Source: Desulfatiglandales bacterium
GTDB taxonomy: Bacteria; Desulfobacterota; DSM-4660; Desulfatiglandales; HGW-15
NCBI GenBank assembly: GCA_963667015.2
Contig: CAXXJJ010000001.1
Location: 2,148,000 to 2,187,999, forward strand
Direction of reading: 5' to 3'
DNA length: 40,000 nucleotides
Positions 13,297-36,254 of the stretch are shown one piece after another. Below the pieces are notes generated by a model. The model was not told the DNA's origin, did no database searches, and saw only the letters and a program-made list of their open reading frames with translations. The position numbers were made by a program, and so were the translations under genes. Position 1 is the first letter of the stretch. Every line of letters begins with the position of its first letter.

Positions 13297-13977
13297 TTAA
13301 TCGTTTTTATTGGACCATTCTCTGAACTTTTCCTTTTCATCTTCACTCATGTTGTTCCATTCCAGCCATTTCCTGAATTCTTCCTTTTCATCCTCGCTCA
13401 TACTATCCCATTCTTCTTTGAGCGCTGTATCTTCTTCCATGATTGGCGGGTTTTCCGGTTCTGTATAGCGCTCCGCTTCACTCATTTCAACAGAACGTGA
13501 TACTCTGATATCCTCGTCTTCATTGTCGGAATATTTTCCAACCTTTGCTATCCAGATATTCGGATTCTCAGCAAACTTCTTTGCTTCGTCCATATCATCA
13601 AGCTCGGGATGGGTTAATCTGTAAAGGCCACCCCTTTTCGCGTTGAACTTCAAGGTAATATTTTTGGACTTAATTTCTTCATGTTTTTTTATCTCATCAT
13701 ATGCCCAGTAAATACTGTAGCGAACAACAATTTCATGCTCGCCCGGAGCCACATGAATTTCCTCTATTGTGCTGAGTACATAATCAGCCAGAGACCCGAC
13801 ACGGCGGCCATCAACACTCTCAACCTCAATATCCGGGGGGACGCTTATGCGTGCCACCTCCGCGGGTGATACCCTTGATTCATCATAGATCTTGATGGGA
13901 GCGCGTTTCATGCAGGATGAAAGAGAAAAAAGTATTCCAATTGAAATCAAGACTGCAAATAATGATCTGTATTTCAT
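13297..13977 (-). CDS. lipoprotein, unknown function
   Basis: Preferred start ATG 13977 gives MKYRSLFAVLISIGILFSLSSC with a lipobox. The C-terminus carries a tandem peptide repeat W(D/N)xMSEDEKExFRxW. Confidence 0.65.
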   Translation of the reverse strand: MKYRSLFAVLISIGILFSLSSCMKRAPIKIYDESRVSPAEVARISVPPDIEVESVDGRRVGSLADYVLSTIEEIHVAPGEHEIVVRYSIYWAYDEIKKHEEIKSKNITLKFNAKRGGLYRLTHPELDDMDEAKKFAENPNIWIAKVGKYSDNEDEDIRVSRSVEMSEAERYTEPENPPIMEEDTALKEEWDSMSEDEKEEFRKWLEWNNMSEDEKEKFREWSNKND

Positions 13978-14601
13978 ATCGAGCCTCACTATTAAAACAT
14001 TGGGGAAAGTAATGTGATGAGCCTTCCGGCACCTTAGATAGTTACCATCCATAAACGGCTCTTTTTATGTAAGCGAATATAGGAAGATAAACTATGTATG
14101 TCAAGGCAATTATAGCCGTGTGTTTCAATGAAAAAGACCTGAATAATCCTTAAAATAAGTTCCATGTCTGCCCTACCCGGTGTCAGGAGATCATAATTTA
14201 AAATTGACTTATAAAAATTTATTTTGATACTTCTATATATTACTATATCCGATACTTATCTTAACTTATTTTATAGTTTCCAAACAACCGCCGGAGAAAA
14301 ATATGCAAGAAGAACGAACGGAATTAAGAGTATTAAACCCGAGGGGTGAAACCGGAGAAAATCCTGTAATACCCGCAATGTCCCTGCAGCCTGACCTTGT
14401 GCTTCCCACCCCGCCGGATGTTGAGAGGATCATCACACAGATAACCATGCAGGCATTATATGAGCTGAAGAACTCTTTGATAGATTTTTTAAAAAGGGGT
14501 AGGTAAGGGTATTGGTGCCTACGTGCAAATATAAGCAAGAGTCAAAGGCGGACTTGCCCCCTTTATATATAAAAACTTAAAAAAATAGGTGCAGATCAGA
14601 T

Positions 14602-21141: not shown

Positions 21142-21275
21142 AGCTAACGAAAAGCATTACAGGCCGTGCGGTGCACACCAACTTACCTTTTTAAAGGTGC
21201 GATGATACTGAGTTGGCAGATAGTTTAAAAAAGGCGAAAAAAATAGCACGGTCCTTGTAGATGCAATGGTTGGCT
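21142..21275 (-). other. attC site (family B), belongs to ORF-less cassette copy A
   Basis: CTAACG aaaagcattacaggccgtgcggtgcacacc ... agcacggtccttgtagatgcaat GGTTGGC. Confidence 0.75.
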
Positions 21276-21540
21276 GCCGCCAACCTGTTTATTTTGTTTT
21301 TGACTGCTTACTTTCAATTACTGTTTTTTAAAGATTTGATGCTTTTTGAATACTATGTTTTTTGATTCTTCTTTTTATATTGTTCTGAATTATTTTTCAA
21401 AGGAATTTCCGGGGAATGGATTTCCTTTGTTTTTTGTTACCTTTTTATTTCCAGATCAATTCTCGCGCCCTTGAGTTACATGTTATTAATAACTGCCTTT
21501 CTACTGCCACGATATTTTGTTTTTATCATTTCCCAGCACG
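21276..21540 (-). repeat. ORF-less cassette body, copy A
   Basis: T-rich on +. No ORF of 60 aa or more on either strand. Near-identical to 24708-24979 and 35861-36124 for most of its length. Confidence 0.8.
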
Positions 21541-21668
21541 CCAACGTTTGCGATAAGGAGTTGGCGGGTTAATGGTGCCGATGGTCGATAAAGTATGAAG
21601 ACCATTGATGCTACTGAATTTCAATCGGCAAGAAAAACCAGCCAATCACCTTGATTGCAGGGTTAGAA
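21539..21668 (-). other. attC site (family E)
   Basis: CCAACG tttgcgataaggagttggcgggttaatggtgccgatggtcgataaagtatgaag... GGTTAGA. Same family as 38119-38240. Confidence 0.7.
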
Positions 21669-23527: not shown

Positions 23528-23658
23528 TCATAACGTGTGCATTACAAGCCGGGCGGTGCAAACCAACTTACCATATTTAATATACAAAGATTTATAGTTG
23601 GTGGAGATTTTAAAAAAGCGTAAAAAAAGCCCGGTCTTAGTAAATGCAATGGTTCTGC
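23528..23658 (-). other. attC site (family B)
   Basis: ATAACG tgtgcattacaagccgggcggtgcaaaccaacttacc ... agcccggtcttagtaaatgcaat GGTTCTG. Confidence 0.75.
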
Positions 23659-23666
23659 ATCTCCTA

Positions 23667-24005
23667 TTATAATTTTCTTGAGTATATGTAACTTATAACT
23701 GCTGGCACCAAAACAATCATTGGTGCACATGCAACTAATATTATCCTGAGTTCATTGTTTTTCAAAGGTAGGAAAAATGTTATTACACCAAAAATAATAA
23801 GCGGAACGGACCATATGATAAGTTGTTTTCCGCCGTAGGCATTGATTTTATACCAATTCTCTTCCGACTCAAAAGATTTCTTAAATCGAATCCCAAATAT
23901 TTGATTCATTGAGATACTTTTCTGAACTAAAGGTATGCTAATAATAATCATTAAAATTCCAACGAAAATATTACTGATACCCAAAATGATATTAACCATA
24001 TCCAT
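23667..24005 (-). CDS. cassette ORF: SdpI/YhfL-family membrane protein
   Basis: 112 aa. The block NQIFGIRFKKSFESEENWYKIN between TM helices resembles the SdpI family GIRT...W motif. Confidence 0.6.
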   Translation of the reverse strand: MDMVNIILGISNIFVGILMIIISIPLVQKSISMNQIFGIRFKKSFESEENWYKINAYGGKQLIIWSVPLIIFGVITFFLPLKNNELRIILVACAPMIVLVPAVISYIYSRKL

Positions 24006-24574: not shown

Positions 24575-24707
24575 GCTTAACGAAAAGCATTACAGGCAGT
24601 GCGGTGCACACCAACTTACAATGTTAAAGGTGCGTGGATACTGAATTGCCAGATAGTTTAAAAAAGGCGAAAAAATAGCACGGTCCTTGCAGATGCAATG
24701 GTTGGCT
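24575..24707 (-). other. attC site (family B), belongs to ORF-less cassette copy B
   Basis: TTAACG aaaagcattacaggcagtgcggtgcacacc ... agcacggtccttgcagatgcaat GGTTGGC. Confidence 0.75.
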
Positions 24708-24979
24708 GCCGCCAACCTGTTTAGTTTGTTTTTGACTGCTTACTTTCAATCACTGACTTTTAAAGACTTGATGCTTTTTGAAAACTATGTTTTTTGATTC
24801 TTCTTTTTATATTGTTCTGAATTATTTTTCAAAAAAATTTCCGGGGAATGGATTTCCTTTGTTTTTTGTTACCTTTTTATTTCCAGATCAAGATCAATTC
24901 TCGCGCCCTTGAGTTACATGTTATTGGCAACTTCATTTCCGCTTCCCCTGTAATTATTTTCTTCCTTCTTTCAAGCACG
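24708..24979 (-). repeat. ORF-less cassette body, copy B
   Basis: Aligns by eye with copies A and C. Has a 6-nt gatcaa duplication and GG>AA changes in the hairpin arm. Confidence 0.8.
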
Positions 24980-25035
24980 CCAACGCCCAGTTTAACCGGC
25001 GGGCGTAGCCCGTCCTGTTGAAACTGATGTTAGTG
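24978..25035 (-). other. attC site (very short, family D relative)
   Basis: CCAACG cccagtttaaccggcgggcgtagcccgtcctgttgaaactgat GTTAGTG. About 58 bp. Confidence 0.7.
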
Positions 25036-26105: not shown

Positions 26106-26124
26106 TTTATCCCCCAAGCACCGG

Positions 26125-28424
26125 GTAGGGCAAGGGCTTCTCAGCCCCTTTCCCCCCTAAGAAACGTACGTGATAGTTTCCCATCATACGGCTCAAGCAT
26201 TTCACAAGGACGATCTTCTGGAACGCCCCGACTACGTTTCCCACTAATTAGCGTATAAAATCGCACGATTGGCTTTTGCCGTCAAGGCTGGTAATAATCG
26301 CTTCTCCTTATCATGCCTGCGTTGCCAAAAGTAACCGGCGTACTTCTTAAGGTAAGGATTAGCGTCTGCCTTGATTTTAATATGCCTTTTAATGCCCAAA
26401 TGGCCTAAGCGTAAAACGCTGTAGACTTTCTTCCCCAGCGTAGTTTTACCTACTGCGGAAAATACCCATTTTTTACCATCTACCATCCAGTACTTCTTAA
26501 CAAGCCATTTCTTTGACTTTCTTGGATGGCGTTTTCTGAGCATTCTCCATAACTGGTCATAGACATAACCGTCAATACGATAAAATGATGCTCCGGCTAC
26601 TACATGACGATGGTAGTTGCCCCAACCTCGAAGTACAGAGTTCAGTTCCTTTATCATGGCAGGCATTGGTGCACTGACGTATTTGCGGATTATTCCGCCG
26701 AGGCGTTGTATCAATGATTCTACGCCCTCTTTTGAAGGCCTTATGTGCAATGTCTTGCCGTGTTTCCGGAATGTTTGTCCCAGAAACATAAAACTGTCCC
26801 GGATATGTGTGATGGCAGTCTTTTGCTCAGAGAGATTTAATCCTCTTTCTCTTAAGAATTCTACGACCGCCGGCTTTACCTGTTTTTCTAAAAGCCTTCT
26901 GGATTTCCCTGTGATGATAAAATCATCCGCATAACGAATAAAATTTACTCTGGATCTACGCGGGACTGATTTATGTACAGCTTCTTCCAGTCCGTCCAGA
27001 ACCATATTCATTAACGTAGGGCTTATAATACCTCCCTGTGGTGTTCCTCTTCGGGTTGGATATCTTATCCCTTTTTCCACAAATCCTGCCTTCAACCACT
27101 TGGCCAGTATTTCTTTATCCATTGGGATGTTTGCCAGCATCCACTCATGCGATATGTTGTCAAAACATCCTTCAATGTCGGCTTCAAGCACCCACGTTGC
27201 GGAGTTTGGCTTGTTTAAGGCATTGAATGCCGCTCCTACTGCATCGGCACAGCTCCGCCCCTCTCTAAATCCATATGAGTTGCGGTCAGCTAATGTTTCT
27301 GCTATAGGAGCTAAAGCAAGTTTGTACAATGCCTGCATTGCCCTGTCATACATTGTAGGTATACTTAAAGGACGTTTCTTTTTACTTCTCTTTTTAGAAA
27401 TATACGTCCTTCTAAGCGGTTGAGGTCTGTAACCTCTTTTGTGCAGGCTGTTAGCAGCCTGCCATTTGGTTTTGGCGCCTTTCCATAAGATGCCGTCAAT
27501 GCCGGGTGTTTTCTTACCCTTATTAGTAGTCACTCTTTTTACTGCCAGAAGCTTGGCAGCTCTTGAGCGTGTGAGCAGATATTGTAATGATTTAACCTTA
27601 TTCCATCTGCCTTCCTGCGTAGCCTTTGCGATACGCATCTGCAGCCGTCTAACCTTTTTCCGCTCTGCTGTCCAGTCCACGCTGTTCCAGCATGCGGAGT
27701 CTGACTTCTTATCTTGGCTTTTGAGTGCACCAGCCGAAGCTGTCTTTTGCTTTCTCATCTACAACGGTTCTCCAGATTATCTCGCAAGGAAACACCAGTC
27801 GGATGTCTGCCCCCATTTCGGTATTCCTTTGACTCCTTCTACCTTTTAGGACTGCCATGTTTCATGCAGTATCCTTCCCGCTACAGGAAGGCATTTGCTT
27901 GTTCCGACCTCTCATTGCCGACCCTCCATGGGCTTGCCTTATACGGTTAGCTTGCCATGCATTGCGTGACATGGCGGACTGCCGGCTTTTCCACGTTCCG
28001 CATAATCACCTTAAATGAATAACTTAGGTGGTACCTGTACGCCGATGGCTTGTGTTCCCGCATGGGCACGTTAGAAACCCATGACCACACCACATCTATC
28101 CGCCCAGAGGGATAGATCTTCGACCTTTATCCTGAAGTCAGGAAGTTAGCTCTCGTAGGTCTAGACTTTTATGACGACGCTTAAGGTCTTTGATTAATCT
28201 CACCATATTATCCAGCCCTCGCCCTTAACCCGGTAGAGCTCCGGGATGGGTTCGCCTGTCACCATTTGAACCCGTTTCGGTACTTTGTCCACGGGGCTTC
28301 ACACTCTGTCATACGCGCAACAGCAGCATGCCCGTGTAGGGGACTGGAGGGGACGCTCCAGGTGTTGCCATGTATGGTGTAACCTCATGGTCAACACATA
28401 TGATTATGCGACATCGTGTCGCAA
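26125..28424 (-). mobile_element. group II intron (sense to the cassettes), full length
   Basis: RT/maturase ORF in domain IV. Domain V gagccgtatgatgggaaactatcacgtacgtttc is the reverse complement of 26161-26194, followed by a domain VI-like stem ending ...ccctac. The 5' end abuts the attC core as CCGTTAT|TTGCGACACG. Boundaries +/-5 nt. Confidence 0.75.
26244..27758 (-). CDS. group II intron reverse transcriptase/maturase
   Basis: 504 aa. RT blocks ...LSIPTMYDRAMQ..., ...GTPQGGIISPTL..., FIRYADDFIITG (YADD), and maturase X-like ...LRGWGNYHRH.... No HNH endonuclease tail is evident. Confidence 0.9.
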   Translation of the reverse strand: MRKQKTASAGALKSQDKKSDSACWNSVDWTAERKKVRRLQMRIAKATQEGRWNKVKSLQYLLTRSRAAKLLAVKRVTTNKGKKTPGIDGILWKGAKTKWQAANSLHKRGYRPQPLRRTYISKKRSKKKRPLSIPTMYDRAMQALYKLALAPIAETLADRNSYGFREGRSCADAVGAAFNALNKPNSATWVLEADIEGCFDNISHEWMLANIPMDKEILAKWLKAGFVEKGIRYPTRRGTPQGGIISPTLMNMVLDGLEEAVHKSVPRRSRVNFIRYADDFIITGKSRRLLEKQVKPAVVEFLRERGLNLSEQKTAITHIRDSFMFLGQTFRKHGKTLHIRPSKEGVESLIQRLGGIIRKYVSAPMPAMIKELNSVLRGWGNYHRHVVAGASFYRIDGYVYDQLWRMLRKRHPRKSKKWLVKKYWMVDGKKWVFSAVGKTTLGKKVYSVLRLGHLGIKRHIKIKADANPYLKKYAGYFWQRRHDKEKRLLPALTAKANRAILYAN

Positions 28425-30748: not shown

Positions 30749-30813
30749 GCATAACGGTGCCCTTAACATGCCGGGCGGCGTTTCATCGCCCGGTCATAGT
30801 TGAAGGGCGGGTT
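30749..30813 (-). other. attC site interrupted by two group II introns (remaining 6-7 nt at 35028-35034)
   Basis: ATAACG gtgcccttaacatgccgggcggcgtttcatcgcccggtcatagttgaagggcgGGTT | introns | ATGTCAT. Joining the flanks restores GGTTATG, the right-core form seen at other sites. Confidence 0.75.
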
Positions 30814-32922
30814 GTGTGCCGGGCTGGCCCGGCTGCTAAATGGTGATGCGGAGGTATTTTGACACAAATACACTGCAAAGTCCATATCCAGGCTGACGGA
30901 GCCGAAGGATAGTCGAGGGCAAGGGTACTGAAAGGAATATGTGCCTGAAGGAAGCCTAAGACAAAAGCGTGGGTTGACGTACAGGTATGCCCCGTACCTT
31001 AACTGGTAGAGGGCAGGCAGATTAGGCTGGGGGATGTCGGGACGAGTCCGCAACACAGGATAAAGTCCTATATCCGTTACATGGCTGAACCAAGTATATC
31101 TGACAATCGTGCGCTGAAAGTAGCCGAGGCTTACCCCGGGAGGTCCACTGCGTCTCAGAAGATCTATCGCTGTAAGCTACCGGAATATTGGGAAAACCGG
31201 TTAAAAAAAAATCCCGGCATCATTATGGCCGGGCGTCCCGGCAAATGATGAGCCTGTCCTGCAGGGCAGGGCAAACAAACAGAGGGCGCAGGCGGTAGAA
31301 ACCAATGAGTGACCAAACCGCAAGGGGAGACTATCGCGTAGTGGGAGTCAGCAGAGGGCATAATAGTTTCTGAGTACAGTCGGTACTAAGGAATAAGGCC
31401 CGAACGGTGCCACCTGTCGAATGGCAGGGGTAAATGAGAGAGGTTATTAGGAGACGAGTCTAATGAAATCATCGCGGCAGTGGAAACAACTTGAGTTGTA
31501 CTCGATAGATCCCGGCCCAAGGGCTAAAACGGATACGAGTTCCGAAGATTTTATTGCGTCGCGTCTATCCGAAAGCCCGACAGGTCAGATCCGGCTCATG
31601 GAGTCAATCTGTGAGCGGAGCAACATGAGACGCGCTATCAAGCGGGTCATCAAGAACAAGGGAGCCCCCGGTGTGGATGGTATGACCGTCAGCAAGATAG
31701 ACAGGTATTATCAAAGGCACCGGGACAAGATCGAAAAGGCCCTGCTGGAGGGAACGTATATGCCCATGCCGGTATTACAAAAGGAGATTGATAAACCGGA
31801 CGGCGGAACCCGCCTTCTCGGGATTCCTACTGTGCTGGACAGGGTGATTCAGCAGGCAGTGGCTCAGGTATTTACAAGTATCTGGGATTATACCTTTTCG
31901 GAGATGAGCTTTGGCTTCCGCCCAGAACGCTCTCAGCATGGTGCTGTTCGTCAGTACCGGGAGTATCTGAGGGCAGGGTATAAGTATGTGGTTGATATTG
32001 ATATATCCAAATTCTTTGACAGGGTAAACCATGACAGGCTAATGAGCCGTCTTGCTGCCAGGGTCAAGGATAAGAGGGTATTGAAACTAATCCGCAGGTT
32101 TCTGACATCCGGTGTAATGATCGGAGGTCTTGTAGAGCCAATGAGAGAGGGTACGCCCCAGGGCGGCCCACTTTCCCCCTTGCTCAGTAATATTGTTCTT
32201 GATGAACTGGATAAAGAGCTTGAAAAGCGTGGTCTTCGTTTTGTCCGGTATGCTGATGACTGTGTCATATTTGTCAAAAGCAAACCGGCAGCGAATCGAG
32301 TGATGAGTAGTATAACCCGGTTTATAGAAAAGAAGTTGAGATTAAAGGTGAACCGGGAAAAGAGCGCCATTAGCCTCCCATGGAAAAGTAAGTATCTGGG
32401 ATTCTGCGTAACAAACTCAAGCACGAATCCCAAGATACGTATTCATTGGAAGAGTATCAAGAGGTTTAAGGAGCGGGTAAAGGAAATTACAGCCCGCAAT
32501 AGAGGGCGCAGTATTGTGCAGGTGATCAAAGAGCTTAATGATTATATGAGAGGTTGGTGGAACTATTATGGTATTACCGAGTCCTACAACCGAATAAAGC
32601 TCTTGCCCAGTTGGATCAGGCGACGCCTTCGGGCTGTTATCTGGAAACACTGGAAGAACCGCAGAACCCGTGTAGGTGAACTCCTCAAAAGAGGAGTTAG
32701 AAAAGATGAAGCTGTTACTACAGGATGTGCCCGAAAGGGTCCATGGAGAATGAGCAGAGTTGAATGGGTTCAGTATGCACTACCTAATAAATACTTTTCA
32801 TCACTTGGGCTTGTGTTCCCCTGGAACTGATTTCTGCCTTGGATCAGCCGAACCGCGTTGTACGGACCCGTATGCTGCGTGGTGTGGGAGGGAGTAGTCG
32901 CGAGGCTACTTCCTATCCCGAT
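30814..32922 (+). mobile_element. group II intron, class C-like, copy 1 (antisense to cassettes)
   Basis: Starts GTGTGCC (GUGYG). Domain V-like helix at ~32851-32884 with CGC at the triad position. Domain VI gggagggagtag...ctacttcctAtccc has a bulged A 7 nt from the end ...cccgat. Confidence 0.8.
31463..32830 (+). CDS. group II intron reverse transcriptase/maturase (copy 1)
   Basis: 455 aa. ...LGIPTVLDRVIQQA..., GTPQGGPLSPLL, FVRYADDCVIF (YADD), and maturase block RGWWNYYG. No endonuclease domain. Confidence 0.9.
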   Translation: MKSSRQWKQLELYSIDPGPRAKTDTSSEDFIASRLSESPTGQIRLMESICERSNMRRAIKRVIKNKGAPGVDGMTVSKIDRYYQRHRDKIEKALLEGTYMPMPVLQKEIDKPDGGTRLLGIPTVLDRVIQQAVAQVFTSIWDYTFSEMSFGFRPERSQHGAVRQYREYLRAGYKYVVDIDISKFFDRVNHDRLMSRLAARVKDKRVLKLIRRFLTSGVMIGGLVEPMREGTPQGGPLSPLLSNIVLDELDKELEKRGLRFVRYADDCVIFVKSKPAANRVMSSITRFIEKKLRLKVNREKSAISLPWKSKYLGFCVTNSSTNPKIRIHWKSIKRFKERVKEITARNRGRSIVQVIKELNDYMRGWWNYYGITESYNRIKLLPSWIRRRLRAVIWKHWKNRRTRVGELLKRGVRKDEAVTTGCARKGPWRMSRVEWVQYALPNKYFSSLGLVFPWN

Positions 32923-35027
32923 GTGTGCCGGGCTGGTCCGGCTGCTAAATGGTGATGCGGAGGTATTTTGACACAAATACACTGCAAAGTCCATATCCAG
33001 GCTGACGGAGCCGAAGGATAGTCGAGGGCAAGGGTACTGAAAGGAATATGTGCCTGAAGGAAGCCTAAGACAAAAGCGTGGGTTGACGTACAGGTATGCC
33101 CCGTACCTTAACTGGTAGAGGGCAGGCAGATTAGGCTGGGGGATGTCGGGACGAGTCCGCAACACAGGATAAAGTCCTATATCCGTTACATGGCTGAACC
33201 AAGTATATCTGACAATCGTGCGCTGAAAGTAGCCGAGGCTTACCCCGGGAGGTCCATTGCGTCTCAGAAGATCTATCGCTGTAAGCTACCGGAATATCGG
33301 GAAAACCGGAAAAAAATCCCCGGCATCAAATGACCGGGCGTCCCGGCAAATGATGAGCCTGTCCTGCAGGGCAGGGTAAACAAACAGAGGGCGCAGGCGG
33401 TAGAAACCAATGAGTGATCAAACCGCAAGGGGAGACTATCGCGTAGTGGGAGTCAGCAGAGGGCATAATAGTTCCTGAGTACAGTCGGTACTAAGGAATA
33501 AGGCCCGAACGGTGCCACCTGTCGAATGGCAGGGGTAAATGAGAGAGGTTAATAGGAGACGAGTCTAATGAAATCATGGCGGCAGTGGAAACAACTTGAG
33601 TTGTACTCGATAGATCCCGGCCCAAGGGCTAAAACGGATACGAGTTCCGAAGATTTTATTGCGTCACGTTTATCCGAAAGCCCGACAGGTCAGATCCGGC
33701 TCATGGAGTCAATCTGTGAGCGGAACAACATGAGACGCGCTATCAGGCGGGTCATCAAGAACAAGGGAGCCCCCGGTGTGGACGGCATGACCGTCAGCAA
33801 GATAGTCAGGTATTATCAAAGGCACCGGGACAAGATCGAAAAGGCCCTGCTGGATGGAACATATATGCCCATGCCGGTGTTACAAAAGGAGATTGAAAAA
33901 CCGGACGGCGGAATCCGCCTTCTCGGGATTCCCACAGTACTGGACAGGGTGATTCAGCAGGCAGTGGCTCAGGTATTTACAAGTATCTGGGATTATACCT
34001 TTTCGGAGATGAGCTTTGGCTTCCGCCCAGAACGCTCCCAGCACGGTGCTGTTCGTCAGTACCGAGAGTATCTGAGGGCAGGGTATAAGTATGTGGTTGA
34101 TATTGATATATCCAAATTCTTTGACAGGGTAAATCATGACAGACTAATGAGTCGTCTTGCTACCCGGATAAAGGATAAGAGGGTATTGAAGCTCATCCGC
34201 AGGTTTCTGACATCCGGTGTAATGATTGGAGGTCTTGTAGAGCCAATGAGAGAGGGTACACCTCAAGGCGGCCCACTTTCCCCCTTGCTCAGTAATATTG
34301 TTCTTGATGAACTGGATAAAGAGCTTGAAAAGCGTGGTCTTCGTTTTGTCCGGTATGCTGATGACTGTGTCATATTTGTCAAAAGCAAACCGGCAGCGAA
34401 TCGAGTGATGAGTAGTATAACCCGGTTTATAGAAAAGAAGTTGAGATTAAAGGTGAACCGGGAAAAGAGCGCCATTAGCCTCCCATGGAAAAGTAAGTAT
34501 CTGGGATTCTGCGTAACAAACTCAAGCACGAATCCCAAGATACGTATTCATTGGAAGAGTATCAAGAGGTTTAAGGAGCGGGTAAAGGAAATTACAGCCC
34601 GCAATAGAGGGCGCAGTATTGTGCAGGTGATCAAAGAGCTTAATGATTATATGAGAGGTTGGTGGAACTATTATGGTATTACCGAGTCCTACAACCGAAT
34701 AAAGCTCTTGCCCAGTTGGATCAGGCGACGCCTTCGGGCTGTTATCTGGAAACACTGGAAGAACCGCAGAACCCGTGTAGGTGAACTCCTCAAAAGAGGA
34801 GTTAGAAAAGATGAAGCTGTTACTACCGGATGTGCCCGAAAGGGGCCATGGAGAATGAGCAGAGTTGAATGGGTTCAGTATGCACTACCTAATAAATACT
34901 TTTCATCACTTGGGCTTGTGTTCCCCTGGAACTGATTACTGCCTTGGATCAGCCGAACCGCGTTGTACGGACCCGTATGCTGCGTGGTGTGGGAGGGAGT
35001 AGTCGTGAGGCTACTTCCTATCCCGAT
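32923..35027 (+). mobile_element. group II intron, class C-like, copy 2, directly abutting copy 1
   Basis: GTGTGCC begins at the nucleotide after copy 1 ends (...cccgat|gtgtgcc). It has the same 3' end ...cccgat followed by atgtcat (the attC remainder). Confidence 0.8.
33568..34935 (+). CDS. group II intron reverse transcriptase/maturase (copy 2)
   Basis: 455 aa. Differs from copy 1 at about ten residues, all in the first ~205 aa. Confidence 0.9.
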   Translation: MKSWRQWKQLELYSIDPGPRAKTDTSSEDFIASRLSESPTGQIRLMESICERNNMRRAIRRVIKNKGAPGVDGMTVSKIVRYYQRHRDKIEKALLDGTYMPMPVLQKEIEKPDGGIRLLGIPTVLDRVIQQAVAQVFTSIWDYTFSEMSFGFRPERSQHGAVRQYREYLRAGYKYVVDIDISKFFDRVNHDRLMSRLATRIKDKRVLKLIRRFLTSGVMIGGLVEPMREGTPQGGPLSPLLSNIVLDELDKELEKRGLRFVRYADDCVIFVKSKPAANRVMSSITRFIEKKLRLKVNREKSAISLPWKSKYLGFCVTNSSTNPKIRIHWKSIKRFKERVKEITARNRGRSIVQVIKELNDYMRGWWNYYGITESYNRIKLLPSWIRRRLRAVIWKHWKNRRTRVGELLKRGVRKDEAVTTGCARKGPWRMSRVEWVQYALPNKYFSSLGLVFPWN

Positions 35028-35694
35028 ATGTCATGTCTTTGATTGTAATCATATTTCCATCATGGAATATTACAGTATCTCCAATATAGATAATCTCATT
35101 ATTATCATGAAATATTGCCGAACCATCTGTGATTGAAACGATATCATGCTCAATACCTTTGGAATATTCACTGACTTTTTCGATAAAAGATGTTTCCATA
35201 TTATTAAAGTGTGGTAAAAATTCATAATTGACAATGTTAAGGGCTTGATAATTAGAGTGATCACGTATGACTTGTTCAACTGTCTCTGTTACCAGGCGAA
35301 ATAATGAAACATTTTTTGTAAACTGCATCGATCCACCACTTGCACCCATTATCAAAAGGTCTTCAGCTATTAAATTGAGTAAACGTGACTCTAAACCAGT
35401 TTGAAGAATATTTTCCCTAAAACTTATTGGATTCCCACCTGTTAAATAAATGACATCATATTTATTAAGGTCATCTAATTGCCTTTCATCAAGATCTTCA
35501 TCAATGTCTATAAAATCCAGATTTGTAAAACCAAATGATTTAAAATGCCTTTTAGCTTTAGGAAAACGTTCATGCCCCTCTTTACTAAATGGAGGTATCC
35601 AGGCAATACGAGGATTTGTGCCTTTACTTCTGATGTGTTCTAAAATAATTTCATTTCTTGATAAAGGAAAGTCACTTGTAAGCAATAATTTCAC
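35011..35694 (-). CDS. cassette ORF: peptidase E (S51)-like / class I glutamine amidotransferase-like protein, C-terminus altered by intron insertion
   Basis: ...YDVIYLTGGNPISF... and ...IMGASGGSMQF... resemble S51 dipeptidase E blocks. The last 5 codons (YRDRK*) are read from intron sequence. Without the introns the ORF would end ...KDMT-TAA using the attC core. Confidence 0.65.
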   Translation of the reverse strand: MKLLLTSDFPLSRNEIILEHIRSKGTNPRIAWIPPFSKEGHERFPKAKRHFKSFGFTNLDFIDIDEDLDERQLDDLNKYDVIYLTGGNPISFRENILQTGLESRLLNLIAEDLLIMGASGGSMQFTKNVSLFRLVTETVEQVIRDHSNYQALNIVNYEFLPHFNNMETSFIEKVSEYSKGIEHDIVSITDGSAIFHDNNEIIYIGDTVIFHDGNMITIKDMTYRDRK

Positions 35695-35726: not shown

Positions 35727-35860
35727 ACATAACGAAAAGCATTACAGGCCGGGCGGTGCAAACCAACTTACCATGTTAAAGGTACGAGGATTCTGAGTTG
35801 GCAGATAGTTTAAAAAAGGCGAAAAAAATAGCACGGTCCTAGTAGATGCAATGGTTGGCT
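35727..35860 (-). other. attC site (family B), belongs to ORF-less cassette copy C
   Basis: ATAACG aaaagcattacaggccgggcggtgcaaacc ... agcacggtcctagtagatgcaat GGTTGGC. Confidence 0.75.
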
Positions 35861-36124
35861 GCCGCCAACCTGTTTAATTTGATTTTGACTTCTTACTTTC
35901 AATTACTGATTTTTAAAGATTTGATGCTTTTTGAATACTATGATTTTTGATTCTTCTTTTTATATTGTTCTGAATTATTTTTCAAAGGAATTTCCGGGGA
36001 ATGGATTTCCTTTGTTTTGTTACCTTTTTATTTCCAGAACATTTCTCGCGCCTTTGAGTTACTTGTTATTTGCAACTTCATTTCCGCTTCTCCTGTAATT
36101 ATTTTCTTTCTGCTTTCCAGCACG
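35861..36124 (-). repeat. ORF-less cassette body, copy C
   Basis: Aligns with copies A and B, with scattered substitutions and small indels (for example gttttttgtt > gttttgtt). Confidence 0.8.
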
Positions 36125-36254
36125 CCAACGCCCCAAATAACCAGACGGGCGGTTAATGATTATTGATACTTGCAAACATCAATTGCTTCTATGATGCACC
36201 CAACTGCGATCTGGCAAGAGAGTAGCCCGGTCTGAGTTGATTTGGATGTTAGCA
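36123..36254 (-). other. attC site (long family D)
   Basis: CCAACG ccccaaataaccagacgggcgg ... gcgatctggcaagagagtagcccggtctgagttgatttggat GTTAGCA. Confidence 0.75.

What the first reader, a model, noticed from the sequence alone, without database searches (positions are those of the whole stretch)
21142..21546. ORF-less ~400-bp cassette present in three diverged copies across the array
- **Three copies.** The same unit occurs at 21142-21546, 24575-24985 and 35727-36130.
- **Unit structure.** Each unit is a family-B attC plus a ~265-bp strongly T-rich (+ strand) body that ends at ...agcacgCCAACG, the core of the next attC.
- **Divergence.** The copies differ by scattered substitutions and small indels, so they are real paralogues. 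In copy A the last ~50 bp of the body is replaced by unrelated sequence.
- **No convincing coding signal.** No ORF of 60 aa or more exists on either strand. The only recurring reading frames are a 17-21 codon minus-strand peptide (B MKLPITCNSRARELILIWK, C MKLQITSNSKAREMFWK, with an AGGAG/GGGGA-like site upstream in B and C only) and an F-rich + strand frame that is broken in copy C.
- **Hairpin.** The body contains aaaggaatttcc-gggg-aatggatttccttt followed by gttttttgtt on the + strand, which is terminator-like and antisense to the cassettes. It is intact in copies A and C but has two arm mismatches in copy B.
- **Possible promoter.** In cassette sense there is a possible promoter, TTGAAA-N15-TATAAA, just after the hairpin.
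- **Candidate roles.** Options are an internal promoter or insulator for a long array, a small RNA, a micro-peptide gene, or a non-autonomous mobile unit that recruits the integrase.
Basis: seen in the sequence. Interest (0 to 1): 0.7.

Follow-up and report, generated by a model that had tools for sequence, protein, structure and literature searches.

The report
Repeated gene-less integron cassette family
The three ~400-bp units are real copies of a non-coding ("gene-less") integron cassette that also occurs in other sediment bacteria; gene-less cassettes are a known kind, this family's job is still unproven, and its ends are shared with at least one protein-coding cassette.

Summary
Three paralogous cassettes lie in a minus-strand integron array at 21148-21544, 24581-24983 and 35733-36128. 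They are 89-93% identical and have no ORF of 60 aa or more.

I found 9 more full copies and 4 partial ones in a Desulfobacteraceae MAG, two MAGs from one Danish sample and six metagenome contigs.

The conserved unit is the body, not the attC. Bodies are 73-97% identical, yet they sit on at least 4 unrelated attC types.

The body has four parts:
- a 5' leader;
- a central hairpin;
- an indel-prone zone;
- a ~100-bp 3' trailer that ends in an invariant palindrome, GGTTGGC-N4-GCCAACC, which contains the cassette's R'' box.

Coding is rejected: substitutions are flat across codon positions, start codons are lost, and there are nonsense and frameshift changes. A structured RNA is unsupported: no covariation and no Rfam hit. 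The proposed promoter is present in only 8 of 12 copies.

One metagenome cassette carries a 364-aa ORF between the same leader and trailer. That ORF's homologues lie outside integrons and lack these ends.

Best guess, at low confidence: a cis-acting non-coding cassette whose conserved features are terminator-like hairpins on the antisense strand. An inert or selfish cassette "shell" is nearly as likely.

The parts
21148..21544 (-). ORF-less cassette copy A (cut G|TT at both ends)
   Evidence: boundaries read from TAAC at 21145-21148 and CCAAC at 21541-21545
24581..24983 (-). ORF-less cassette copy B
35733..36128 (-). ORF-less cassette copy C
21148..21275 (-). attC of copy A (family B). The + strand is the recombinogenic bottom strand, with bulged bases on its 3' arm
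   Evidence: DNA fold; a fourth family-B attC at 23533-23655 sits on an ordinary ORF cassette
24581..24707 (-). attC of copy B
35733..35860 (-). attC of copy C
21268..21285 (.). R-box palindrome GGTTGGC-TGCC-GCCAACC, made of the R'' box plus its own complement. On + it is followed by TGTTTATTTTGTTTTT (terminator-like T1). The core GTTGGCTGCCGCCAAC is invariant in all 16 family instances
24700..24717 (.). R-box palindrome / T1 of copy B
35853..35870 (.). R-box palindrome / T1 of copy C
21276..21362 (-). 3' trailer module of copy A. Equivalents in B and C (nhmmer hits, which include the palindrome) are 24699-24794 and 35852-35947. Mean pairwise difference 0.096 across 12 copies. Also found behind ORFs in L028 and L030
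21374..21400 (-). Promoter-like TTGAAA-N15-TATAAA. Present in 8 of 12 family members; lies in the indel-prone zone
21398..21438 (+). Central hairpin plus T-run (terminator-like T2 on the + strand; -12.7 kcal/mol as + RNA, -11.2 as cassette-sense RNA)
24830..24870 (+). Central hairpin plus T-run of copy B. GG>AA on + is CC>UU in cassette sense, which keeps two G.U pairs
35983..36021 (+). Central hairpin plus shorter T-run (TTTTGTT) of copy C
21453..21544 (-). 5' leader module of copy A. Equivalents in B and C are 24891-24983 and 36036-36128. Its first ~50 nt exist in two forms (alpha/beta, ~38% mean difference); the next ~75 nt are conserved (12% difference)
24877..24978 (-). Judged not a gene

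Best explanation
**What it is**
- It is a family of non-coding (gene-less) integron cassettes.
- In cassette (minus) sense each copy reads: R' core GTTGGCG, a ~95-nt leader, a central hairpin, an indel-prone zone, a ~100-nt A-rich trailer, an invariant palindrome GGTTGGC-GGCA-GCCAACC that contains the cassette's R'' box, and then a host-type attC.

**Shown**
- It moves as a cassette and has been kept in several copies per genome in at least three genomes.
- It does not encode a conserved peptide.

**Inferred: most likely mode of action**
- It acts in cis on transcription across the array, and it does so asymmetrically.
- Cassette-sense transcripts meet no terminator and read through.
- On the T-rich antisense (bottom) strand there are two stem-loops, each followed by a U-rich run. 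These are the palindrome and the central hairpin.
- They would stop antisense transcripts, for example those from antisense promoters or from the bottom-strand group II introns in this array. That would shield upstream cassettes from transcriptional interference.
- A weak sense promoter (TTGAAA-N15-TATAAA) may add to this in two thirds of the copies.

**Inferred: effect on recombination**
- On the folded bottom strand the palindrome is predicted to out-compete the attC's own R-box pairing.
- That would lower excision and help the unit persist.
For: **Identity as a cassette**
- Boundaries, attC fold and array context are consistent with a cassette.

**Family size**
- There are 12 full and 4 partial copies in other genomes and metagenomes.

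**Body conserved, attC not**
- Bodies are 73-97% identical, while the attC centres are ~50% identical or less between attC types. This indicates constraint or repeated transfer of the body itself.

**Uneven divergence inside the element**

| Segment | Mean pairwise difference |
|---|---|
| Palindrome | 0.03 |
| Hairpin | 0.09 |
| Trailer | 0.10 |
| 5' variable part | 0.38 |
| Indel zone | 0.23 |

**Hairpins**
- T1 hairpin plus T-tail is found in 12 of 12 copies. T2 hairpin plus T-tail is found in 11 of 12.
- L013b replaces the hairpin sequence but still has a hairpin at the same place.
- No U-run follows either hairpin in cassette sense (sequence).

**Composition**
- The extreme strand skew exceeds that of any of 19 cassette ORFs.

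**R-box competition**
- Adding the trailer-end GCCAACC switches the bottom-strand MFE from R-box pairing to the local 7-bp hairpin.

**Literature**
- Gene-less cassettes commonly modulate array transcription, and antisense transcription silences upstream cassettes (PMC11014356).
- Bottom-strand group IIC-attC introns impede or redirect array transcription (PMC3001079).
Against: **No functional data**
- There are no expression data of any kind.

**The terminator look may be incidental**
- On a strand that is 47% T, a T-rich tail after any hairpin is expected about 30% of the time. By my own binomial estimate, both hairpins having one happens about 9% of the time from composition alone.
- The palindrome's conservation could equally reflect recombination.
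- Terminator-like sites in the array are only slightly above shuffled expectation (13 vs 8.8, 17 vs 10.9).

**Conservation is not explained**
- A ~100-nt trailer conserved at ~90% is more than a terminator needs.

**No supporting context**
- There is no consistent association with reverse-oriented neighbours. Only copy C lies near + strand genes, the introns at 30813-35030.

**Strand is undecided**
- Hairpin energies do not clearly favour one strand.
- Copy B's substitution keeps pairing only in cassette-sense RNA.
- The 22-nt insert forms a markedly more stable hairpin in cassette sense (-8.9 to -10.2 vs -4.4 to -4.7 kcal/mol).

**Some trailers are not in ORF-less units**
- The trailer occurs behind real ORFs in L028 and L030.
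Confidence: 0.33

Rival explanations
1. It is an inert or selfish cassette 'shell'. The unit would be the leftover 5' and 3' ends (former UTRs) of coding cassettes, or a hitch-hiking non-coding cassette. It would persist and multiply only because the integrase can move it and it costs little. Its conserved parts would serve its own recombination or retention (R' core, R'' palindrome) rather than the host.
For: - L028 carries a 364-aa ORF between the same leader and trailer.
- In L030 an ORF reads into the trailer.
- Of the four metagenome trailers whose upstream side is visible, two are ORF-bearing.
- The trailer keeps a stop codon at one position (TAA in most copies, TGA in copy B) and a relic frame IVFKKHQIFK(S/N/K)Q*.
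- The most conserved piece is the recombination-box palindrome.
- Copies are mosaics of alpha/beta ends with or without the 22-nt insert, as expected for recombining repeats.
Against: - The ORF-less form is the majority (12 full copies) and carries a hairpin core that L028 lacks.
- Paralogous lineages have co-existed in several genomes. For example L016 and L004 are 97% identical across genomes, while copies within a genome are 81-89% identical. This is hard to reconcile with bacterial deletion bias if the unit is useless.
- The AT skew is twice that of any coding cassette, so it is not simply decayed coding DNA.
- Homologues of the L028 ORF lack these ends.
Confidence: 0.27
2. It is a sense-strand promoter cassette, like most gene-less cassettes of Vibrio superintegrons. 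The A/T-rich body would start transcription toward the downstream cassettes, which lie far from Pc.
For: - TTGAAA-N15-TATAAA matches 5 of 6 positions in each hexamer and is present in 8 of 12 copies just after the hairpin.
- 24 of 29 tested gene-less cassettes in Vibrio had sense promoter activity, and in-silico prediction was unreliable (PMC11014356).
- ORF-less cassettes from the oral metagenome also show promoter activity (PMC6557892).
Against: - The spacer is 15 nt.
- The motif is destroyed in L022b, L016 and L004 (22-nt insertion) and in L027 (deletion).
- It lies in the least conserved, indel-prone zone.
- The consensus scan found no promoter-like site inside the body of any window copy. 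The only hit inside a cassette is a 9/12 site in the attC of copy A (21229>21202, minus strand), absent from B and C.
- No positionally conserved site of 9/12 or better exists in the family.
- The best-conserved module, the trailer, has no -10-like box in sense.
Confidence: 0.2
3. It is a gene for a small U-rich RNA on the bottom strand. Transcription would start after the palindrome, from a -35-like TTGACT, and end at the central hairpin plus U-run. This would give a ~100-nt RNA antisense to all family members and to trailer-bearing mRNAs.
For: - TTGACT, 5 of 6 matches to the -35 consensus, is in register in 9 of 12 copies (TTAACT in L022b, ATGACT in L013a and L026).
- A canonical-looking intrinsic terminator lies ~130 nt downstream.
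- The conserved 5' part, variable middle and terminator match the usual sRNA layout.
Against: - The -10 is poor (GAYTTT, GTTTTT or GGTTTT).
- There is no Rfam match.
- The body does not fold better than shuffles (z = +1.6 on the + strand, -0.3 on the minus strand).
- There is no covariation.
- In L028 the same trailer has no downstream terminator.
Confidence: 0.1
4. It is a small-protein gene. Either it encodes the 17-33-aa minus-strand peptide (…KLPITCNSRARELIWK), or it encodes the hydrophobic + strand peptide (LLAAANLFSLFLTAYFQLLTFKDLMLFEYYVF) as a type-I-toxin-like product.
For: - Both frames are open in most copies.
- SD-like sequences precede the ATG in copies B and C.
- The + peptide looks like a single transmembrane helix.
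Against: - Substitutions are flat across codon positions: 13/9/8 for the minus peptide, and 8/8/7 for the + peptide by my hand count on alignment A4.
- For the minus peptide I counted ~13 non-synonymous or nonsense changes against 5 synonymous, which is close to the neutral ratio.
- The ATG is missing in alpha-type copies and in L028; L020 has an in-frame stop; stop positions vary.
- The + ORF's start lies in the non-conserved attC, and the T1 hairpin lies inside it. L013b is frameshifted.
- The + strand trailer peptide has no homologue among 5.8 billion proteins, and the + strand ORFs have no Pfam hit.
Confidence: 0.03
5. It is an acceptor 'empty cassette' for making new cassettes. Genes would be captured between the conserved leader and the trailer-attC, so the ORF-less form would be the scaffold from which ORF-bearing cassettes such as L028 arise. 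Group II introns in attC sites might assist.
For: - The L028 ORF is flanked by the family's leader and trailer. Its only homologues (49-55% identity) sit in non-integron islands without those ends.
- In L030 a different ORF is joined to the trailer.
- In L029 a group II intron splits a hybrid attC right after a trailer.
- The same body sits on at least 4 attC types.
Against: - There are only two ORF-bearing examples, one of them on a 0.77x-coverage contig.
- The junctions show no recombination signature.
- The L028 leader is much more diverged (35 bits against 70-90), so the direction of the event is unknown.
- Ordinary illegitimate recombination explains the same picture.
Confidence: 0.07

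Closest known systems
Gene-less cassettes of Vibrionaceae sedentary chromosomal integrons (Blanco et al. 2024, NAR; PMC11014356)
   Same: Both are attC-bounded cassettes with no gene. Both are A/T-rich and sit deep in a long chromosomal array. Both are plausible cis-modulators of array transcription, on either strand.
   Different: - The hosts differ: Desulfobacteraceae-like bacteria and other sediment bacteria.
- This family has no conserved sigma-70-type promoter.
- Its conserved features are antisense-strand hairpins and an R-box palindrome.
- The same body is found on several unrelated attC types.
- Its ends are shared with ORF-bearing cassettes.
- Activity was not tested here.
ORF-less gene cassettes from the oral metagenome with promoter activity (PMC6557892)
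   Same: Both are short ORF-less cassettes recovered from metagenomic integrons.
   Different: There is no sequence relation. Promoter activity was shown experimentally there and only guessed here.
Rho-independent (intrinsic) terminators
   Same: Both have a G+C-containing stem-loop followed directly by a U/T-rich run. Here there are two in tandem on one strand.
   Different: - They lie antisense to all neighbouring genes.
- One of them is built from the attC R'' box and its complement.
- The T-run may simply reflect the strand's 47% T.
Group IIC / IIC-attC intron target sites (PMC3001079 and references therein)
   Same: The elements carry hairpins of the kind these introns insert after. Introns are present in this array, and one lies next to a trailer in L029.
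   Different: No family copy has an intron after either hairpin. The L029 intron lies in the attC, in cassette sense.
Type I toxin-antitoxin loci
   Same: There is a small hydrophobic ORF on one strand with possible antisense transcription, inside an integron array. Arrays are known to carry TA cassettes.
   Different: There is no codon-level conservation. The start codon lies in non-conserved attC sequence, and one copy is frameshifted.

Membership tests
Integron gene cassette | 5' junction at a core site G|TTRRRY and 3' end at its own attC R' (G|TT) | tested here: met
   - The 5' core is GTTGGCG, which departs from RRRY at one position. The 3' R' is GTTAG, GTTAA or GTTAT.
- In circular form R' GTTGGC is complementary to R'' GCCAAC.
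Integron gene cassette | attC is an imperfect inverted repeat that folds as a single strand, with bulged bases on the '' arm of the bottom strand | tested here: met
   The DNA fold of the + strand shows R-box and L-box stems with bulges on the 3' arm. The same attC family occurs on an ORF cassette at 23533-23655.
Integron gene cassette | Lies in an array of co-oriented cassettes next to an integron integrase | tested here: inconclusive
   - The array of minus-strand ORFs separated by attC families runs from ~15 to 40 kb.
- No integrase lies in the window; it is expected beyond 40000.
- In L016 a tyrosine recombinase (PF00589) diverges from the array two cassettes away. IntI-specific features were not checked.
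Gene-less promoter cassette (Vibrio type) | No protein-coding gene | tested here: met
   The longest ORF in the window copies is 57 aa. There is no codon-position bias, frames are broken, and there are no Pfam or protein-database hits.
Gene-less promoter cassette (Vibrio type) | [quoted passage not shown] | not testable with these tools
   Only motif evidence is available. TTGAAA-N15-TATAAA is in 8 of 12 copies, and no conserved match of 9/12 or better exists.
Intrinsic terminator | Stable stem-loop immediately followed by a U-rich tract on the transcribed strand | tested here: met
   - T1: 7 bp (6 bp in seven of the twelve copies), 5 G-C pairs, tail TGTTTAGTTT; flagged in all three window copies.
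- T2: -12.7 kcal/mol with tail TTTTTTGTT.
- This is met as a motif only. Function was not tested.
Structured non-coding RNA / known Rfam family | Match to a curated family, or covariation supporting a fold | tested here: not met
   - There is no Rfam hit in the element at gathering score or at E up to 10.
- RNAalifold gives a covariation term of +0.27, with 1 compensatory pair of 38.
- The whole-body fold is no better than shuffles.
Small protein / type I toxin gene | Conserved start, intact frame and excess of synonymous change | tested here: not met
CsrA/Rsm-sponge RNA | Enrichment of GGA motifs | tested here: not met
   There are 4-6 GGA per copy against 3.8-5.8 in shuffles.
MITE / non-autonomous transposon | Terminal inverted repeats with target-site duplications, independent of attC | tested here: not met
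   - This rests on reading the alignments; no dedicated inverted-repeat search was run.
- The only terminal symmetry is the R'/R'' pair GTTGGC...GCCAAC, which is integron recombination logic.
- Flanks are always cassette junctions, and no duplications were seen.

The most novel reading that the evidence does not exclude
The ORF-less unit is an 'empty cassette' scaffold. Foreign genes would be captured between its conserved leader and its trailer-attC, possibly with the help of attC-resident group II introns. Families like this one would then be intermediates in the unsolved problem of how integron cassettes are born. The R-box palindrome at the trailer end would be part of that mechanism.
Probability: 0.07. 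Interest if true: 0.85.

Novelty: new member of a known kind. Interest (0 to 1): 0.4.

Why it matters
Gene-less cassettes have so far been studied almost only in Vibrio, where they act as promoters. This family shows four things.

- Such cassettes also exist in multiple copies in integrons assigned to other bacterial groups (Desulfobacteraceae- and Zixibacteria-labelled genomes).
- One non-coding body can be conserved while its attC is exchanged for the host's own type.
- The ends of the body are modules that also flank protein-coding cassettes.
- The body carries an R-box 'decoy' hairpin that is predicted to interfere with folding of its own attC.

If these features were shown to control antisense transcription, excision or gene capture, they would bear on two open questions. 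One is how long arrays are expressed and stabilised. The other is where cassettes come from. As it stands this is a well-described new family with no demonstrated function.

Tried and rejected
**Searches of other collections**
- BLASTN of the element against plasmids and phages found nothing.
- Viral contig scans with two trailer patterns gave only chance 20-mers.
- Sixteen of the 25 genome loci hit by the 19-mer TTCCGGGGAATGGATTTCC are unrelated chance or other contexts.

**RNA family and structure**
- Rfam at gathering and at permissive thresholds gave only group II introns elsewhere in the window and a sub-threshold rli23 match outside the element.
- Whole-body RNA folds on both strands are not better than shuffles.
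- RNAalifold found no covariation.

**Coding**
- Six-frame codon-position counts show no third-position excess in any frame.
- A protein search with the trailer-antisense peptide found no candidates.
- A protein search with the L030 lipoprotein-like ORF found no homologue, so it cannot show that the trailer is ex-coding.
- Pfam gave nothing meaningful on the spurious T-strand ORFs or on the L028 and L030 ORFs.

**Promoters and other motifs**
- A sigma-54 motif, phased A-tracts and inverted-repeat operators were inspected by eye and are not convincing.
- A CsrA-sponge idea fails because GGA is not enriched.
- A sigma-70 scan mapped onto the alignment found no conserved strong site.

**Context**
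- I looked for an association with particular neighbouring cassettes or with reverse-oriented genes and found none.
- Strand choice from hairpin energies is ambiguous.
Full report
**1.
- The three stretches align over ~400 bp with 89% mean column identity. nhmmer E-values are 1e-97 to 1e-101.
- Neighbouring ORFs are on the minus strand and are separated by several families of imperfect inverted repeats that begin TAAC and end GTTA. This is an integron cassette array read on the minus strand.
- Window positions 1-13 kb hold ordinary genes (MFS transporters, tannase, GH43). No integrase is in the window.
- Placing the crossover at G|TT gives cassettes 21148-21544, 24581-24983 and 35733-36128.
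- Each has a 128-bp attC (21148-21275 in copy A). The + strand of this attC folds into the expected R and L stems, with bulged bases on the 3' arm, so + is the bottom strand.
- The same attC family closes an ordinary ORF cassette at 23533-23655.
- The longest ORF on either strand of the three units is 57 aa.

**2. The family exists elsewhere.**
- A genome-collection scan with a 19-mer from the hairpin returned 25 loci. Five of them carry true homologues:
  - one copy in a Desulfobacteraceae MAG (L020, 88-90% identical over the aligned stretch including the same attC; bodies 86-88%);
  - three copies in an 'uncultured delta proteobacterium' MAG (L022 x2, L016);
  - three copies in a 'Zixibacteria' chromosome from the same sample (L013 x2, L004).
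- A metagenome scan with the palindrome-trailer junction gave six more contigs (L026-L031).
- In total there are 12 full ORF-less copies and 4 partial or variant ones.
- In every locus the A-rich strand of the element matches the sense of the neighbouring cassette ORFs.
- In L016 the element is the third cassette from a divergent tyrosine recombinase.

**3. What is conserved is the body, not the attC.**
- Bodies are 73-97% identical between all copies. The attC centres are ~50% identical or less between attC types, and at least four attC types occur.
- Within the two MAGs of sample MFD02416 the attCs are 94-98% identical although the bodies are only 81-89% identical.
- Homology always begins at (T/G)GTTGGCTGCCGCCAACC and ends at GCCAAC|G.
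- Divergence inside the body is very uneven:

| Segment | Mean pairwise difference |
|---|---|
| Palindrome | 0.03 |
| Hairpin | 0.09 |
| Trailer | 0.10 |
| Conserved part of leader | 0.12 |
| Indel zone | 0.23 |
| 5' variable part | 0.38 |

- The 5' variable part exists in two forms, alpha and beta. These combine freely with the presence or absence of a 22-nt insertion, so the copies are mosaics.
- Copy A's 'unrelated' end resembles the alpha-like form by eye in the alignment; I did not measure this.

**4. It is not coding.**
- The minus-strand micro-peptide has an ATG only in beta-type copies.
- Alpha-type copies and L028 have none. L020 has an in-frame TAA. The C-terminus ends at different stops.
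- By my count there are ~13 non-synonymous or nonsense changes against 5 synonymous.
- Substitutions fall 13/9/8 on codon positions 1/2/3.
- The hydrophobic + strand frame through the trailer shows 8/8/7 by my hand count on alignment A4. Its start lies in non-conserved attC sequence, and it is frameshifted in L013b.
- The F-rich frame through the core is broken by 2-nt and 22-nt indels.
- No protein in a 5.8-billion-sequence collection resembles the trailer peptide. Pfam finds nothing in the + strand ORFs.

**5. It is not a recognisable or covarying RNA.**
- Rfam finds nothing in the element.
- The body folds no better than shuffles on either strand.
- RNAalifold on 12 copies gives a covariation term of +0.27, with one compensatory pair of 38.
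- Two local hairpins are nevertheless kept.
- The central hairpin is identical in 8 of 12 copies. In copy B two changes leave G.U pairs only in cassette-sense RNA. In L013b it is replaced by a different hairpin at the same position.
- Energies do not decide which strand matters: the sum over copies is -122 kcal/mol in sense against -135 in antisense.

**6. Promoters.**
- The consensus scan finds no promoter-like site in the body of any of the three copies. The one hit inside a cassette is a 9/12 site in copy A's attC (21229>21202, minus strand), which B and C lack.
- Mapping weaker matches onto the alignment shows none that is both strong and positionally conserved.
It is destroyed by the 22-nt insertion in three copies and by a deletion in L027, and it lies in the least conserved zone.
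- Published work shows most gene-less cassettes in Vibrio do have sense promoter activity, and that in-silico prediction is unreliable (PMC11014356). This rival therefore cannot be dismissed.

**7. Strand-specific features that are conserved.**
- On the T-rich (+, bottom, antisense) strand there are two stem-loops, each followed by a T-rich run.
- T1 is the palindrome GGTTGGC-TGCC-GCCAACC followed by TGTTTAGTTTGTTTTT. It is flagged in all three window copies and present in all 16 instances.
- T2 is the central hairpin followed by TTTTTTGTT. It has -12.7 kcal/mol and is present in 11 of 12 copies.
- Neither hairpin is followed by a U-run in cassette sense.
- The body's AT skew (0.36-0.41) is twice the maximum of 19 cassette ORFs in the same array. 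The strand asymmetry is therefore a property of the element, not a relic of coding.
- Caveat: on a strand that is 47% T, T-rich tails are expected often. By my estimate both hairpins would have one about 9% of the time by chance. Terminator-like motifs in the array are only mildly above shuffled expectation.

**8. The palindrome.**
- It consists of the cassette's R'' box (AGCCAAC in sense) preceded by a copy of the cassette's own R' core (GTTGGCG).
- Folding the bottom strand of copy A without the extra arm gives the normal 7-bp R box.
- Including the extra arm switches the minimum-energy structure to the local 7-bp hairpin, and the R box is lost.
- The inference is a built-in competitor of attC folding that could lower excision.
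- I know of no description of such a feature, but I did not search the literature for it specifically.

**9. Relatives with genes.**
- In L028 a cassette begins with the family's leader (nhmmer E = 2e-9) and ends with its trailer (E = 2e-26) and a family-B attC. In place of the ~95-nt core it carries an RBS and a 364-aa ORF.
- That protein's only detectable homologues (49-55% identity) lie in non-integron islands, next to a phage-type integrase or AbiGi/HNH genes. They have no leader or trailer.
- In L030 (a 0.77x-coverage contig) a lipoprotein-like ORF reads through the 3' arm of the hairpin into the trailer. A terminal half-copy broken at the hairpin abuts a cobT-like gene. That ORF has no homologues.
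- Leader and trailer therefore behave as cassette-end modules that can flank different contents. Of four metagenome trailers with a visible upstream side, two are ORF-bearing.
It does not make the ORF-less copies a decayed version of any identified gene.

**10. Verdict.**
- Identity is secure: a new family of gene-less integron cassettes. This is a known kind of element (PMC11014356, PMC6557892).
- Function is not established.
- I rank a cis-acting, strand-asymmetric role first, at about one third. This means antisense-strand termination or insulation, possibly with a weak sense promoter and an R-box decoy that favours retention.
- An inert or selfish cassette shell comes close behind, followed by a plain sense-promoter cassette and then a bottom-strand sRNA.
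- A peptide gene is essentially excluded.
- The most novel surviving reading is an 'empty cassette' into which genes are captured. It rests on two examples and gets ~7%.

Noticed in passing
window 26120-28362 (-), 30813-32921 (+), 32922-~35030 (+): There are three group II introns inside the array. One lies in cassette sense (RT ORF 26244-27758). Two are near-identical tandem copies on the bottom strand (RT ORFs 31463-32830 and 33568-34935), and the first of these starts right after an attC (...GGGCGGGTT|GTGTGCC). The bottom-strand pair fits the known IIC-attC habit; the sense-strand one does not. Evidence: Rfam and Pfam hits.
   Followed up: partly
L029 1-1041: A family trailer is followed by an attC that is split by a ~800-nt ORF-less group II intron in cassette sense. 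The attC part 5' of the intron is of the L022 type and the part 3' of it is of the window's B type. This hybrid is what recombination between intron copies in different attCs would produce.
   Followed up: partly
L013, L016, L022, L004 (sample MFD02416): Two MAGs labelled with different phyla ('delta proteobacterium' and 'Zixibacteria') share one attC type (94-98% identical). They also share a 92-aa cassette ORF at 98% identity (L016 3514-3792 vs L013 6262-6540). This points to cassette exchange between co-resident organisms, or to a binning or labelling problem.
   Followed up: partly
L004 750-1817: In this copy the attC is replaced by short repeats (GAACCCTGGATTAGTACCGAGC...). Two IS200-like Y1 transposase ORFs follow. 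Homology to the family stops exactly at the palindrome.
   Followed up: partly
L026 3797-3850: The cassette's 5' junction abuts a perfect 15-bp inverted repeat (TTCTAGGAATCCTGT...ACAGGATTCCTAGAA) instead of an attC. This may be the attI side of an integron. The contig ends 40 nt later.
   Followed up: no
L030 190-445 and 840-1001: Two half-copies are both broken at the central hairpin. One is the last unit before a cobT-like gene and has a different 9-bp G+C hairpin in place of the normal one. The other is fused to a lipoprotein-like ORF. The hairpin seems to be a module boundary or breakpoint. Contig coverage is only 0.77x.
   Followed up: partly
L022b, L016, L004 (alignment A3 columns 197-218): A 22-nt insertion is shared by three copies. 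It forms its own hairpin (UCCGCC-UUU-GGUGGA) that is markedly more stable in cassette-sense RNA, because a G.U pair there becomes an A.C mismatch on the other strand (-8.9 to -10.2 vs -4.4 to -4.7 kcal/mol).
   Followed up: partly
window 23533-23655: A fourth family-B attC closes an ordinary ORF cassette (ORF 23667-24005). It has no trailer or palindrome, so the trailer is not a general part of this attC family.
   Followed up: yes
window 13315-13413: A tandem 51-bp direct repeat (79% identity) lies inside the DUF2057-like ORF 13297-14052, just outside the array.
   Followed up: no
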